From Eledone cirrhosa (Eukaryota): a DNA stretch of 64,000 nt. The stretch is from contig OZ024741.1 of assembly GCA_964016885.1 (NCBI GenBank), forward strand, positions 155,062,001 through 155,126,000. The letters run 5' to 3'. The position numbers were made by a program, and so were the translations under genes. Of this stretch, positions 1 through 8,639 are shown in pieces. Numbering within the stretch: the first letter of the stretch is position 1; each line of letters starts with the position of its first letter. The notes beneath the pieces are model-generated. The model was not told the origin of the DNA. It made no database searches and saw nothing but the letters and a program-made list of their open reading frames with translations.

Positions 1-186
1 ATGTAATTAACTACTGTATATATTGTTTGTGTTTACACATCCACACACACACACACACATATATATATATATATGTATATATATATATATATGTATATAT
101 ATATATATATATATATATATATATATATATATATATATATATATATATATATATATATATATATATATAAGTAGTTCAACAACATT

Positions 187-254
187 TAGTTCACCATACT
201 GAGAACAAAGGTTTCACCTTATCGTGAAACATTTGGTCTTGGTATGGTGAACTA
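187..254. repeat. 68-nt hairpin (small fold-back; inverted copy of a hammerhead 3' half)
   Basis: tagttcaccatac...gtatggtgaacta pair, with inner gtttcac/gtgaaac and a 6-nt loop. GAGTGCTC motif ~20 nt downstream. Confidence 0.75.
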
Positions 255-361
255 CCAAATTCGTCCCATGGACTGAGTGCTCTACTACTACAGATATAAC
301 CCTCCAGTGTTATATACTATTATATATATTAGAATTGGTGCTCTGAAATAGCGATATATAT

Positions 362-770
362 ATGAATGTATATATAGTGTATTTTGCAATACAGTGTATG
401 CTTAATTAAAAGCATTTTGAAGACCATACGCTATTGTTTTAAAATAGTGACAATGTCACTTATTTAAATTTTCAGCAAACAGAGGAGATAAACTGACAGA
501 GCTCTGTTTCGTACTTTTTGGTACTTATCAAAGCTCACTACTCCAACACACATAAGAATCCAACACACATAATTTTCAGCAAACAGGAGGAGTAGTGAGC
601 TTTGGTAAGTACCAAAAAGTACGAAACAGAGCTCTGTCAGTTTATCTCCCTTGTTTGCTGAAAATTTAATAAGTGACATTGTCACTATTTTAAAATAATA
701 GCGTATGCTCTTCAAAATGCTTTTAATTAAGCATACAGTGTATTGCAAAATACACTGTATATACATTTAT
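362..770. mobile_element. Palindromic Penelope-type non-autonomous element with a hammerhead motif in each arm
   Basis: Arms 362-544 and 589-770 are reverse complements with few mismatches; flanked by TA-rich repeats. Confidence 0.8.
490..536 (-). ncRNA. Type I hammerhead ribozyme, U3-A8 core variant
   Basis: Minus strand reads gagct-TTGATAA-gtac caaaaa gtac-GAAA-cagagctctg-TC-agttt: stems I, II and III plus a GUC site. Confidence 0.7.
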
Positions 771-922
771 TATATATATATACATATACATACCGACAGA
801 ATTAAGGTGTTTGCTCCAACATAGCTGTATACATATATCTATGTGTATTTTGTATATCGAATAATATATGATATGTTTACGAATAAACATTTATTATTAT
901 CATCATTATTATTATTATTCAG

Positions 923-1260
923 GTTGGGACATTGAAAAGGGTGATCCTGATGGACTACAGCCGGCCATGCTGATATCATTGACCTGTCCAAAGTTGTGTG
1001 CTCGCCACTTCCAAGGACAACACCACTATCTGGGTGGACGGTATATACCACGTACTTTGGAACTTCGTTACGAGCTCAACCTTCCCAACTATCCCGGTGT
1101 TGATTGTGCAGTGGAGCTGAAGACACAACAGCACCATCCATCAGCCAGCCATAATACTAGCTCCACTATTTCTAATGTTACTACTACTACTAATGTTACT
1201 TCTAATGTTACTCACACTACCATTACTAATGCTAATACTAGTGCCTCATCCGCCTTATAG
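923..1260 (+). CDS. NAXE: Last coding exon of NAD(P)HX epimerase (YjeF_N / APOA1BP)
   Basis: Acceptor ttattcAG at 921-922. Translation [66 protein letters not shown] matches the NAXE C-terminus (GWDVE..LISLTAPK..HYLGGRF.P..Y.LNLP.YP). Stop TAG at 1258-1260. Upstream exons are outside the window. Confidence 0.93.
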
Positions 1261-1574
1261 AAGCACGTCCACATATTTAATTCTATCTGTCTATTTATAT
1301 ATCTATCTATTTATTTATTTGTCTGTCTGTCTATTTATCTATCTATCTATTAATTTATCTATTTATCTATCTAAATATCTACCTCTCTCTCTCTCTCTAT
1401 ATATATATATATATATATATATATATATATATATATATATATTTCTCTCTCTCTCCTTTTATATATATATATATATATATATATATATATATATATATAT
1501 ATATATATTAGCAATAGCACTAACATAGTGTGGTTCATAATAGAGATGTATATAAAGGCATATATGATATGTAT

Positions 1575-2130
1575 ATGTATAATAAACACCCAAGAGACTC
1601 ACTATGGATATTTTAAGATGTGATCATATCACAGCCATCTCAGTAACCATGTATAAATACCAGACAGCTGTTTTGGGAATTGATCAGACATCAGTGACAT
1701 TTACTCACCCCGTACTGAGACAAAAATACGCTTATAGCTTATATGCTTTTTGTGAGACATTTGTGTGTTTATTGTACATAAACATATAGTACATTCTTTC
1801 ATATTAACCCTATTATTAACCACACCACATTAGCGCTACTGATAATAAATCCTAGCTGGTTAAGTTCACAATATATGCAAATGAGCATCTCTAAGTGATG
1901 TTAGGTTGGCTCTATATGCAAACGAGTATTTTCAGCTAATATCTCATATGCAAAAATGCATATAAACTATAAACATATTCTTGATTCAGTACCAAGTGAG
2001 TACATGTCACTGATGACAGAAGAAAATCCAGAAACACGTGTCTGACAGCTTCATATGGTTATTGAGATATCTGTGACATGACCACAGCTTAAAATATCCA
2101 TAGCATGACTCTTCTGTGGTTATTATACAT
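1575..2130. mobile_element. Older, diverged palindromic element with hammerhead motifs
   Basis: ~1575-1760 is a diverged reverse complement of ~1945-2130 (e.g. catcagtgacatttactcac vs gtgagtacatgtcactgatg; tatggatattttaag vs cttaaaatatccata). Confidence 0.7.
2005..2047 (+). ncRNA. Type I hammerhead motif with decayed stem II
   Basis: tgtca-CTGATGA-cagaagaaaatcca-GAAA-cacgtg-TC-tgaca: 5-bp stem I, palindromic stem III. Confidence 0.6.
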
Positions 2131-5877: not shown

Positions 5878-6240
5878 TATAGAAAAAAAGATGAAATCGA
5901 AAATGCAACTGGAGTCTTATTTTTAAAAATATATATATATTTATTTGGTTCCTTTACCGGTTTCGAAGTTCTTCTGCTTTTCAAAAGTAGAGTTGAGATG
6001 GAGGGTCTGTGGTTTTTCTCACATCTCACAGATGTGAGAAAAACCACAGACCCTCCATCTCAACTCTACTTTTGAAAAGCAGAAGAACTTCGAAACCGGT
6101 AAAGGAACCAAATAAATATATATATATTTTTAAAAATAAGACTCCAGTTGCATTTTCGATTTTATCTTTTTTTCTTTATAATTTCACTCGTGTAGGACAC
6201 CTCTGTTATTTTTCATTTTGTAAAAAAACCTCACTTTCTA
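5878..6240. mobile_element. Near-perfect ~150-bp-arm palindrome with 3-nt loop plus 60-nt tail, inserted in (TA)n
   Basis: Arms 5878-6026 and 6030-6180, loop CAC at 6027-6029. Contains TTGAAAA...CGAAACCGGTA, a hammerhead-like motif. Confidence 0.85.
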
Positions 6241-7594
6241 ATATATATATATATATATATACATACATACACATACACACATATATATATATATATATAT
6301 ATATATATATATATGTATATGTATGTATATATGTACTTGTGCGTGTTTAATGGGAGATTTACTAATTGAAATGCAAGTAATATTACGTTTATCTGTTAAA
6401 TGTTCACTTGCTTACTATCTCTCTATTTTTGCTGCCTAGTTCTATGTAATATGTTTCAAGATATTAAACATTGTTGTTTCCATAACAATATCGTTTAGAG
6501 TATGCTCTGGTTAATGGGATTTTTTTTAACCTAATTTCATTGATCTGTTATGGTACAACGAAGTTGAAATTATTATATTTCAATCTAAATTTCTGTTATA
6601 TATATATATATATACACATATATATATATATGCGTGTGTGTGTGTGTGTGTGTGTGTGTGTGTGTGTGTGTGTGTGTGTGTGTGTGTGTGTGTGTGTGTG
6701 TGTGTGCAACTTTACATGAAAAGGAGGAATTTCTTCAAAATATATAGAAAAATTCCAATTTTTAAGTAAGATGTTTTATATCTAATAACAATTCCAGCTT
6801 TCACTCTTGACATTCTGTAATTATTTAACAGAAAATATCTAAAAATGGGCTTGTTAATTCAAATGTTTATAGTGTATTTACTAGTGGACAGTTCATTGTG
6901 AAAATTTGCAATATTAGAGTAAAGACTATAAATTTTAATGTGATGAAGTCATAGTGCTATTTTGTACTTTTCAAGAATGCCTTGATAATGTGGTTTCATG
7001 TGGACGTTGAATTAATGCAAGTCATTTTATGTTTAATTATAATAAAAATTAATTTCTTTGCCTCTAATTGGTTTCCAGTCATATTTCTATCAGTTTAATC
7101 AGAAACTGAGGGCTTCAAACAGAAAAATGAGATCCTCAATATATGTAATATTTTGAAATATTACACAGATACATACATAGCATCATCATCATTATCATCA
7201 TCATCATATTCATCATTGTTAACATCTACTCTCCTTGCTTGCTTGGGTTATGAGGGCTGTCCCATTATGAGGCTAGACAAGCCAGCTGACCATATCCTGC
7301 TCATATACTCTGTTTTGGCTCAGTTCTCTATGGCTGGATGCCCTTATTAATGGCAACCACATTACAGCATGCACTGAGATTTTTTATGGCACCAACACTA
7401 TCACCTTACAGGCTAAACTGAATGCCTTTTGTTATAACACCAGCACTTTCACTTTGCAGGGTCAGCTTTGTGCTTTTTTGCTTTTGGTAATAATATGACC
7501 AATTACAGAGTGGAGTGGATGTTTTTTTTTATATGTGTAGGTATATATATATATATATATATATATATATATATATATATATATGTGTGTGTGT

Positions 7595-7904
7595 GAAGTA
7601 ATTCTGTCGGAAAGGTCCAGGAAAAAAGAGTGCTCTATGTAAGTTACAGAGCTTAATAGTTATGTAATAAACAACATAAGATAATTATTTCATTTACCAG
7701 TGGTTTCTTGAAAGCAAACGAAATTGCTTTCAATCATCAGAATGAAAAAATCGTGGTGTATTTATTGACAGTGGACTTTAAAATCCACTGTCAATAAATA
7801 CACCAGGATTTTTTCATTCTGATGACTGAAAGCAAATTTCGTTTGCTTTCAAGAAACCACTCGTAAATGAAATAATTATCTTATGTTGTTTATTACATAA
7901 CTAT
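7595..7904. mobile_element. Palindromic hammerhead-bearing element with one-sided tail
   Basis: Arms 7656-7775 and 7784-7904. Tail 7595-7655 contains aaaaaagagtgctctat, the same motif as near 4670. Confidence 0.85.
7688..7747 (-). ncRNA. Type I hammerhead ribozyme, apparently intact
   Basis: Minus strand reads tttcatt-CTGATGA-ttgaaagcaa tttcgt ttgctttcaa-GAAA-cc act gg-TA-aatgaaa: 7-bp stem I, 10-bp stem II, GUA site. Confidence 0.8.
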
Positions 7905-7926
7905 ATATCCTACCTACCTACACAAT

Positions 7927-8250
7927 GGAGGCACATGGCTTAGTGGTTAGAGCATTGGCCTTGCAATCAAAAGGTTGTGAGTTCAATTCTCAGACCGGGT
8001 GATGTGTTGTTTCCTTGAGCAAGACATGTTCCAGTTTACTCAGCTGTAGAAATGAGATGATAGGGACTGGGGTCCCTATCATTTAACTGCAAAGTAGTCG
8101 TGGGGGTACCACAGCAAAAAAGCACCCAGCACTCACTGTAAATGAGGTTGGTGTTAGGAAGGGCATCCAGCTGTAGAAATCAAGCCAGAATCAGTTCCTG
8201 TCCCACCCTTGCAAGCAGGGAAAAGCGGACGTAAAATGAAATGATGATGT
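7927..8250 (+). mobile_element. tRNA-derived SINE (family 2) with RTE-derived 3' tail
   Basis: ggaggcacatggcttagtggttagagc...gagttcaattctc...ccttgagcaagac...ggaagggcatccagctgtagaaa...(atg)n tail. Confidence 0.85.
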
Positions 8251-8274
8251 AATGAAATGATATATATATATATA

Positions 8275-8504
8275 AGTAAGTTTGTTTTGAAACAGCGAGC
8301 AAAGTTTGAAATTTAGTAGAAATAGCTTTCACCGTATTTCAAAAAAATGTTTAGCCTGATAGCTAAACCCTTTAAAAATGGTAATGGATGAGTATTGACG
8401 TATTCATCCTTTTACATTTTTTAGAAGGTTTTAAACCCTGCTATCAGGCTAAAATTTCTTTAGTCAAAAAATACAGTGAAAGCTTCTATTTCTACTAAAT
8501 TTCA
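8275..8504. mobile_element. Degenerate palindromic element in (TA)n
   Basis: tgaaatttagtagaaatag/ctatttctactaaatttca, ttagcctgatagc/gctatcaggctaa and ggatgagta/tattcatcc pair; ~30-nt one-sided tail. Confidence 0.65.
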
Positions 8505-8639
8505 TATATATATATATATATATAAAGGTAGGAATTTGGAAGGAATTTATGACATTTCTATTCATCTTAATCACATTTCAACAAATGAAATGTGAACAAT
8601 ATGGCTAATGGAAGATTCTCAATTAAGCAGCATTCCAGT

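What the first reader, a model, noticed from the sequence alone, without database searches (positions are those of the whole stretch)
170..8505. Dense cluster of palindromic, microsatellite-embedded elements carrying hammerhead ribozymes in both arms
Seen: seven fold-back elements of mutually different sequence lie within 8.5 kb (187-254, 362-770, 1575-2130, 4645-5670, 5878-6240, 7595-7904, 8275-8504). They share one architecture: two inverted arms, flanking (TA)n/(TG)n, usually a 30-75-nt tail on one side only, and in five of them a type I hammerhead core (YTGANRA-stem II-GAAA-short or palindromic stem III-UH-stem I). A GAGTGCTC/GAGCACTC motif recurs near 275, 4668 and 7628. Established: Penelope-like elements (PLEs) carry minimal type I hammerheads in their pseudo-LTRs and leave inverted, 5'-truncated copies with an asymmetric tail. 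Inference: this is a diverse, non-coding, TA-targeting PLE/retrozyme-like system whose transcripts from either strand could form long dsRNA (ADAR/Dicer substrate) or self-cleave. The ORF track shows none of this.
Basis: partly seen in the sequence, partly recalled or inferred. Interest (0 to 1): 0.88.

Follow-up and report, generated by a model that had tools for sequence, protein, structure and literature searches.

The report
Penelope retroelement fold-backs in octopod genome
These seven hairpin-like stretches are head-to-head pairs of cut-off ends of Penelope-type jumping genes that landed in TA repeats, a known footprint that is very common in this octopod genome, and one of the seven families carries a tRNA-like module and no hammerhead ribozyme, which my paper searches did not find described.

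Summary
All seven fold-backs are real, and each belongs to a separate genome-wide family. They are the known insertion footprint of Penelope-like elements (PLEs): two 5'-truncated element ends joined head to head in (TA)n, one end with a fixed tail. The turning point varies from copy to copy, so they are not terminal-inverted-repeat transposons.

Four are ends of protein-coding PLEs (three Hydra-type, one Neptune-like), so the system is not simply non-coding. Two are ~320-350-nt tandem hammerhead units. The seventh is a 259-nt tandem unit with a tRNA-like module and no hammerhead; this scan noted a similar element before in another genome (e1-7810660).

Only 4 arms here fit an intact hammerhead, both arms only at 7590-7904. 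In a read-through RNA the hairpin is predicted to trap the ribozyme (61-72 kcal/mol), so dsRNA is likelier than cleavage.

The cluster is a local peak (8 versus a mean of 0.9 per 10 kb). Extrapolated, the genome holds about 3x10^5 fold-backs and about as many hammerhead motifs, a candidate source for the high dsRNA content reported in octopus. No RNA data were available.

The parts
168..322 (.). E1: short fold-back of a Hydra-type PLE end; tail on the right (about 259-322) with GAGTGCTC at 275; turning point lies inside the family's hammerhead, so the first half of the core is missing
   Evidence: Hydra-type endonuclease directly upstream in sense in 9 of 30 loci
329..779 (.). E2: fold-back of a 318-nt tandem hammerhead unit (U3-A8 core, 10-nt palindromic stem III); 25-33-nt tail on the left
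   Evidence: direct copies in 11 of 29 loci, mostly at a 317-319-nt period
495..531 (-). intact U3-A8 hammerhead motif in E2 left arm (the right-arm copy near 601-638 has a mutated core)
923..1260 (+). last coding exon of an NAD(P)HX epimerase / ApoA-I binding protein gene; E1 and E2 lie in the intron before it
   Evidence: E 2e-25 to PDB 2dg2; upstream YjeF_N exon 3.1-3.4 kb before the window, same strand
1575..2135 (.). E3: old fold-back of a ~320-350-nt tandem hammerhead unit; no tail in this copy; core letters intact only in the right arm (near 2006-2040), stem II broken
4645..5670 (.). E4: unequal fold-back of a Hydra-type PLE end; short tailed left arm (GAGCACTC at 4668), long right arm with coding remnant and 3' UTR
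4745..4812 (-). intact C3-G8 hammerhead motif with long stem II in E4 left arm
4835..4966 (+). C-terminal remnant of a Hydra-type PLE endonuclease
   Evidence: tblastn, 46% identity over 48 aa, E 1e-5
5876..6240 (.). E5: 99% perfect fold-back of a Neptune-like PLE end; 60-nt tail on the right; U3-A8 core with 4-nt palindromic stem III in both arms, stem II weakened by one shared change
7590..7904 (.). E6: fold-back of a Hydra-clade PLE end; 66-nt tail on the left with GAGTGCTC at 7628
7695..7740 (-). intact hammerhead motif, E6 left arm
7819..7865 (+). intact hammerhead motif, E6 right arm
8273..8504 (.). E7: fold-back of the 3' part of a 259-nt tandem unit that carries a tRNA-like module and no hammerhead; ~33-nt tail on the left; this copy turns at the last bases of the tRNA-like module

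Best explanation
The seven elements are independent insertions of seven Penelope-like element (PLE) families into (TA)n, each a head-to-head pair of 5'-truncated element ends, likely made by the PLE reverse transcriptase/GIY-YIG endonuclease priming DNA synthesis at both sides of a nicked TA target. Shown: every family has thousands of candidate places or at least dozens of scored copies; the outer ends are fixed at two positions a tail-length apart while the turning point varies; four families continue upstream into PLE coding sequence; three are short tandem units. Inferred from published work on a lizard PLE: the two fixed ends are the two internal start sites of reverse transcription, and the tail is the sequence between them. 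Inferred here: both arms are copied from one source molecule or locus, and the two growing ends are joined, often with only a few unpaired bases. The hammerheads belong to the parental pseudo-LTR and are passengers; in the fold-back they are predicted to be locked in a long duplex, so a read-through transcript would be double-stranded RNA rather than self-cleaving. E2, E3 and E7 are likely non-autonomous units carried by the same enzymes; E7's unit holds a tRNA-like module and no hammerhead.
For: Fixed ends, variable centre: in the one-arm E6 sample 16 of 29 other loci fold back, the short arm lacks exactly 66 nt in 14 of 16, spans run 219-546 nt, and 28 of 29 end in a microsatellite; E5 8 of 29 fold back, 7 of 8 lack 60 nt, 29 of 29 end in a microsatellite; E2 20 of 29 fold back. 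Coding links: E5 to RT plus C-terminal GIY-YIG in 5 of 10 extended copies and in one blind sample (L280); E6 to an ORF with RWK, DKT and CxCX5C motifs in L065, L149 and L150 (motifs defined in PMC8557442 section 11); E1 in 9 of 30 loci; E4 inside the window. Tandem units: E2, E3, E7. Arms share variants far above random pairing: E6 25 versus mean 3.4 (max 14), E2 95 versus 27.4 (max 50), E5 21 versus 8.6 (max 16), E7 10 versus 2.0 (max 6). Hammerhead trapping: 61-72 kcal/mol penalty in 4 of 4 folds. Published footprint: PMC8557442 passages; tail as two start sites: PMC11167929.
Against: No coding partner was found for E2, E3 or E7 in the loci held, so their mobilisation by PLE enzymes rests on the shared footprint. 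Target-site duplications cannot be read in (TA)n. The arm-sharing test cannot separate one-template copying from later homogenisation, and more variants are one-armed than shared (for example 38 versus 25 in E6). All genome searches score only 40 candidates and favour copies like the query. In 8 of 16 E6 fold-backs the apex loop is 4 nt or less at varied positions, which two fully independent truncations would not readily give. No RNA evidence was obtained.
Confidence: 0.9

Rival explanations
1. Same elements, different chemistry: one cDNA folds back on its own 3' end and copies itself (snap-back), and the endonuclease then cuts the hairpin at the inner site, leaving a tail on one side.
For: Apex loops of 0-4 nt in 8 of 16 E6 fold-backs at positions 160-213 nt from the 3' end; arms share variants; PMC8557442 proposed endonuclease-mediated resolution for the tail.
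Against: In E2 the tail sits on the longer arm in 8 and on the shorter arm in 9 of 24 fold-backs (6 have two tails, 1 none), and very unequal arms exist with the tail on the short one (E4; L149). A fixed first-strand-then-copy order predicts one polarity. PMC11167929 shows both strands nicked and extended in vitro.
Confidence: 0.3
2. The palindromes are miniature inverted-repeat DNA transposons or foldback elements that move as a unit.
For: The palindrome-query sample of E6 shows many copies with nearly the same centre, 195-197 nt from the end.
Against: That sample was chosen by likeness to the palindrome; in the one-arm sample 13 of 29 copies are not palindromic, centres vary, ends are asymmetric, and the arms run into RT/GIY-YIG coding sequence.
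Confidence: 0.03
3. The cluster is a selected host regulatory module that gives the NAD(P)HX epimerase transcript dsRNA or self-cleavage signals.
For: Local density is about nine times the mean and above all 35 blind samples; E1 and E2 lie in the last intron and E3 about 320 nt past the stop codon.
Against: The elements differ in family and age (arms 68-99% identical), most hammerheads are decayed, the window was picked for being striking, and counts per 10 kb are overdispersed (0-5). On the gene's strand the E2 and E3 hammerheads are the damaged ones.
Confidence: 0.05
4. For E7 only: it is an ordinary tRNA-derived SINE, or a tRNA pseudogene caught in a satellite, and not PLE-dependent.
For: Intact A and B boxes, Rfam tRNA score 41-47 bits; no coding partner found; a run of 4-5 T follows the tRNA-like module by about 10 nt.
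Against: The tRNA-like module is internal, not at the 5' end; 24 of 30 rows (28 distinct loci) wrap from the tail of one unit into the next; copies are dispersed over many contigs, end in TA runs at fixed points and fold back with a one-sided tail like the PLE families.
Confidence: 0.1

Closest known systems
Hydra-clade PLEs (Craig et al. 2021, PMC8557442; includes Hydra-1_Obim from Octopus bimaculoides in its supplement)
   Same: C-terminal endonuclease, RWK, DKT and CxCX5C motifs, (TA)n target, hammerhead in the pseudo-LTR, inverted truncated copy and one-sided tail (E6; E1 and E4 by similarity of their endonuclease ends).
   Different: Tails here are 60-66 nt rather than 30-40; three distinct families share a GAGYRCTC tail motif; E6 has a 3' region of about 3 kb with microsatellites and nested insertions. 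Whether any equals Hydra-1_Obim was not tested.
Neptune-clade PLEs
   Same: E5's parent: RT, a CX4CxxC linker, GIY-YIG with cysteine and histidine residues of the CCHH type, (TA)n target.
   Different: U3-A8 hammerhead core; no tree was built, so Neptune versus Nematis is not settled.
Minimal PLE hammerheads (Cervera & de la Pena 2014, PMC4209133)
   Same: Short stem I, extra nucleotide before stem II, palindromic stem III, U3-A8 variant, and pairs on opposite strands 100-700 bp apart were all reported there.
   Different: Scale: about 3x10^5 motifs extrapolated here, against about 9,000 in Xenopus and 126,247 canonical motifs in axolotl (PMC7229834); my descriptor is relaxed and the figure rests on 350 kb.
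Animal non-LTR retrozymes (PMC7229834; bioRxiv 10.64898/2026.07.22.740005)
   Same: E2 and E3: 150-450-nt AT-rich tandem units with a type I hammerhead and no ORF.
   Different: Short arrays and fold-backs in (TA)n with a PLE tail; minimal or U3-A8 hammerheads; circular RNA not tested. E7 has the same organisation but no hammerhead.
Schistosoma SM-alpha SINE-like repeats (passage in PMC6765202) and Helenus tRNA-bearing TRIMs (PMC10886601)
   Same: A Pol III-type promoter inside a non-autonomous retroelement; SM-alpha is also tandem and circularly permuted.
   Different: SM-alpha has a hammerhead and Helenus is LTR-type; E7 has a full cloverleaf, a T run right behind it, no hammerhead and a PLE-type footprint.

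Membership tests
Penelope-like elements, endonuclease-positive | RT plus GIY-YIG ORF linked to the repeat end | tested here: met
   E1, E4, E5, E6; not found for E2, E3, E7
Penelope-like elements, endonuclease-positive | 5' truncation with adjacent inverted truncated copy | tested here: met
   E2, E5, E6, E7 counted; E1, E3, E4 seen in alignments
Penelope-like elements, endonuclease-positive | optional tail at one end | tested here: met
   66 nt in 14 of 16 (E6), 60 nt in 7 of 8 (E5), 23-37 nt in 16 of 20 (E2)
Penelope-like elements, endonuclease-positive | pseudo-LTR that runs on into the ORF start | tested here: met
   L065: E6 end continues about 120 nt into an ORF start with RWK; one locus only
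Hydra clade | RWK, DKT, CxCX5C linker, C-terminal endonuclease, (TA)n target | tested here: met
   E6 parent; E1 and E4 only by 34-49% identity of endonuclease ends
Hydra clade | placement in the RT tree | not tested
   no reference RT set was aligned
Neptune clade | CX2-5CxxC linker before a C-terminal GIY-YIG | tested here: met
   L163, L164; shared with Nematis, so not decisive
Neptune clade | placement in the RT tree | not tested
   no tree built
Type I minimal hammerhead ribozyme | core nucleotides with stems I-III | tested here: met
   4 arms in the window against 0.04 by chance; family majorities fit for E2-E6; E1 family has a weak stem II
Type I minimal hammerhead ribozyme | self-cleavage as monomer or dimer | not testable with these tools
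   needs in vitro assay
Non-LTR retrozymes | short tandem non-coding unit with a hammerhead in each unit | tested here: met
   E2 (318 nt) and E3 (about 320-350 nt)
Non-LTR retrozymes | hammerhead in the unit (E7) | tested here: not met
   no core on the unit's strand, only a C3/A8-mismatched string on the other; Rfam finds only tRNA
Non-LTR retrozymes | expressed unit-length circular RNA | not testable with these tools
   no RNA run available
tRNA-derived SINE (E7) | tRNA-related region with A and B boxes | tested here: met
   Rfam RF00005 41-47 bits, gathering 29; ARAGORN calls no gene
tRNA-derived SINE (E7) | tRNA region at the 5' end and LINE-type 3' tail | tested here: not met
   module is internal in a wrapped tandem unit
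MITE / TIR DNA transposon | fixed length with symmetrical terminal inverted repeats | tested here: not met

The most novel reading that the evidence does not exclude
In the E7 family a captured tRNA cloverleaf has taken over the hammerhead's job: host RNase P and RNase Z cut tandem read-through transcripts into unit RNAs that the PLE enzymes then reinsert, making it a ribozyme-free, host-processed satellite of Penelope-like elements. In parallel, the roughly 300,000 PLE fold-backs, about 2% of the genome, are the main substrate behind octopus hyper-editing.
Probability: 0.2. Interest if true: 0.8.

Novelty: new variant of a known kind. Interest (0 to 1): 0.45.

Why it matters
Three things still matter. 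(1) E7 is a PLE-type non-autonomous unit with a tRNA-like module and no ribozyme; five paper searches returned no listing that describes one. It would show that any host-processed RNA fold can replace the hammerhead, whose role in PLEs is still open. (2) Porath et al. 2017 (PMC5625713, passages) found octopus to have the strongest hyper-editing and an exceptional genomic dsRNA potential but had no repeat annotation for it, while a palindromic repeat explained the frog and Penelope was heavily edited in lizard. Self-contained PLE hairpins at 0.9 per 10 kb, with arms of 90% identity or more covering 2.2% of a 350-kb sample, are a concrete and testable source. (3) The large number of insertions gives a natural data set on how PLEs build inverted copies, a step named as unresolved in PMC8557442.

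Tried and rejected
Rfam does not detect these hammerheads at its thresholds; its many microRNA hits are generic hairpins or microsatellites. The first descriptor required a paired first base of stem II and missed E4 left and E6 right; it was relaxed following PMC4209133. The first density script over-masked and failed its positive control; it is discarded in favour. The repeat finder direct-repeat output was swamped by microsatellites. RNA: no RNA holder listed, which says nothing about expression. The runs laid are contigs of unrecorded kind, two from one sample that may be the assembly's source; they confirm pieces of the sequence and show depths about 10^4 times single-copy over E2, E5 and E6, which is no copy number. 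Hydra-type ORFs next to E2 in L032 and L253 are separated from it by a TA run and start mid-ORF, so they were rejected as partners. The 316-nt direct hit in L065 is a related family's end, not an E6 tandem. No partner ORF for E3 or E7 in the loci held. ARAGORN found no tRNA gene in E7 loci. The bacterial promoter scan on the E7 unit is not informative for this host. Two relevant papers (PMC5785218, PMC5850863) were not available, Repbase and Dfam could not be searched, and of the supplements only the first matches in PMC8557442's file were seen, so these families may already be catalogued.

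
Full report
Setting. The window is G000:C2:155062001-155126000 in a 3.0-Gb assembly. The only longer homologue of a window exon is an Octopus sinensis protein at 41% identity, so the host is taken to be an octopod. I call the seven elements E1-E7 from left to right.

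Observation. Self-comparison confirms all seven fold-backs and shows an eighth at 4371-4611. Rfam gives only sub-threshold hammerhead hits at E2. A descriptor that allows C3-G8 and U3-A8 cores and an unpaired base before stem II passes four arms: E2 left, E4 left and both arms of E6, against a chance mean of 0.04. E3 right and both E5 arms keep the core letters but have a broken stem II; E2 right, E3 left and E4 right have core mutations. E1 turns inside its family's hammerhead. GAGYRCTC lies in the tails of E1, E4 and E6, the three Hydra-linked families; a shorter AGYRC core is also in the E2 and E3 tails and absent from E5 and E7.

Each element is a separate family. Own-genome searches gave 89 to 4,000 first-look candidates per query, with 40 scored each time. 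In 350 kb of blind samples there were 8, 2, 0, 0, 5, 4 and 1 insertions resembling E1 to E7, which points to the order of 10^4 copies for five of them.

The palindrome is made at insertion. With one E6 arm as query, 16 of 29 other loci fold back; the short arm lacks exactly 66 nt in 14 of 16, spans vary from 219 to 546 nt, and 28 of 29 end in a microsatellite. E5: 8 of 29 fold back, 7 of 8 lack 60 nt, 29 of 29 end in a microsatellite. E2: 20 of 29 fold back and 11 of 29 carry a direct copy, mostly 317-319 nt away. E7: 8 of 24 fold back (one E2 locus and one E7 locus appear twice). This is the footprint described for PLEs: truncated copy, adjacent inverted truncated copy, tail at one end, (TA)n bias (PMC8557442, passages). 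In a lizard PLE the tail is the sequence between two internal start sites of reverse transcription, and both target strands are nicked and extended (PMC11167929, parts 1-2 of 4).

Coding parents. [quoted passage not shown] E6 is tied to an ORF with RWK, DKT and CxCX5C motifs, the marks of the Hydra clade (PMC8557442 section 11): L150 in sense, L149 as a 6-kb fold-back whose long arm holds the ORF and ends without tail, and L065 where the E6 end runs on into the ORF start. Pfam itself did not recognise the Hydra-type pieces. E1 has a different Hydra-type endonuclease directly upstream in 9 of 30 loci. E4 holds such a remnant in the window. A Hydra family from Octopus bimaculoides is listed in that paper's supplement. 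E2 and E3 are tandem units of 318 and about 320-350 nt with one hammerhead each and no linked ORF found, matching animal non-LTR retrozymes (PMC7229834, passages; bioRxiv 10.64898/2026.07.22.740005, part 1 and passages).

E7. Longer copies show a 259-261-nt unit in tandem and inverted arrangements; 24 of 30 rows (28 distinct loci) wrap from one unit's tail into the next, though the query favoured such copies. The unit contains a 71-nt tRNA-like module (Rfam 41-47 bits, gathering 29) with A and B boxes, a non-standard anticodon loop, no ARAGORN call and a run of 4-5 T about 10 nt behind it. No hammerhead core lies on the unit's strand, and Rfam finds nothing else in a dimer. Because the T run would stop Pol III before the element's 3' end, the mobilised RNA is likely a read-through multimer (inference). 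The module may serve as promoter, as processing signal for RNase P and RNase Z, or be a passenger; I rate processing at about 0.25. Five paper searches returned no listing that describes such an element. The nearest are SM-alpha (passage in PMC6765202) and Helenus (passages). This scan noted a similar 407-nt repeat in another genome (e1-7810660); that note is unchecked and came after my own reading.

How the two arms arise. They share variants well above random pairing in all four families tested, so they come from one source or were homogenised later; one-armed variants still outnumber shared ones. In E2 the tail is on the longer arm in 8 and on the shorter in 9 of 24 fold-backs, which favours two priming events. 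In E6, 8 of 16 apices have loops of 4 nt or less at varied positions, which favours coupled synthesis or snap-back. This step remains open.

What a transcript would do. The arms are head to head, so the antisense arm is always made first. Forcing the hammerhead fold costs 61-72 kcal/mol in full-length E2, E4 and E6 RNAs, against 0-12 in isolated arms. Read-through RNA should therefore be long dsRNA. E1 and E2 lie in the last intron of an NAD(P)HX epimerase gene, and E3 begins about 320 nt after its stop, so transcription across them is likely. No RNA run was available. PLE minimal hammerheads cleave poorly even as dimers, and U3-A8 cores and opposite-strand pairs 100-700 bp apart were reported in 2014 (PMC4209133, parts 1-2 of 4).

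Is the cluster special? Thirty-five 10-kb samples at round coordinates hold 31 microsatellite-flanked fold-backs (mean 0.89, max 5); bases 1-10,000 hold 8, the other 54 kb of the window none, and the 50 kb upstream 2. It is an upper-tail spot of an overdispersed, genome-wide process. Twelve of the 31 carry a hammerhead-like motif (shuffle rate 1%), and arms of 90% identity or more cover 2.2% of the sample; extrapolation gives 1.5-4.0x10^5 fold-backs and 1.5-4.5x10^5 hammerhead motifs (34 found against 1 in resampled sequence). Octopus has exceptional hyper-editing and dsRNA potential with no repeat family assigned (PMC5625713, passages); these fold-backs are a candidate source, untested.

Verdict. 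The architecture is known PLE biology and six elements are new members of known kinds. The tRNA-bearing, hammerhead-less E7 unit is a variant I could not find in print, and the genome-wide scale links to an open question in cephalopod RNA editing. Interest 0.45.

Noticed in passing
window 4343-4611: Eighth, older fold-back between TA runs with a possible decayed hammerhead; no match among the loci held.
   Followed up: partly
window 7923-8255 and 8641-8925: Two copies of a tRNA-headed SINE in inverted orientation (94% over 213 nt) flank E7, adding a second long duplex around it; Rfam tRNA 28.5 bits at 7936-7993.
   Followed up: no
window 1581: The first AATAAA after the epimerase stop codon lies in the outer end of E3, which might supply the gene's polyadenylation signal.
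   Followed up: no
window 1123-1260: The epimerase's last exon extends about 45 codons beyond the conserved end with a Thr/Asn/Ser-rich repeat.
   Followed up: no
window 51176-52137 (-): Remnant of another RT element with PLE-like motifs by eye; no Pfam hit and no similarity to the Hydra or Neptune pieces.
   Followed up: partly
E6 long copies L061, L063, L067, L070: A polypyrimidine tract ending in CAG about 100 nt upstream of the hammerhead looks like a retained 3' splice site in the pseudo-LTR, as reported for other PLEs.
   Followed up: no
E5 and E6 families: Recurring 5' truncation points 211 nt (E5) and 195-197 nt (E6) from the 3' end, in E6 often with extra C/G at the join, may mark a transcription start in the pseudo-LTR; partly a sampling effect.
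   Followed up: partly
window 42859-48517 (-): Exons of a kinase-domain gene; the 444-aa exon at 44281-45615 matches one Octopus sinensis protein.
   Followed up: partly
window 21518-22111 and 32852-34390: Two 50-bp minisatellite arrays of different sequence (12 and 31 copies).
   Followed up: no
window 10410-11186, 26226-26966, 30843-32486, 48667-49614, 63183-63977; 54405-55415: Several fragments of one RT family with a PHD-like finger, and a second LINE RT fragment.
   Followed up: no
L343, L344 (G000:C1017, C1093): Two small contigs carry an identical intron-less YjeF_N gene, possibly bacterial contamination or a retrocopy.
   Followed up: no
blind samples L276-L310: At least eight further hammerhead-bearing families with unrelated stems, many in opposite-strand pairs, beyond those in this window.
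   Followed up: partly
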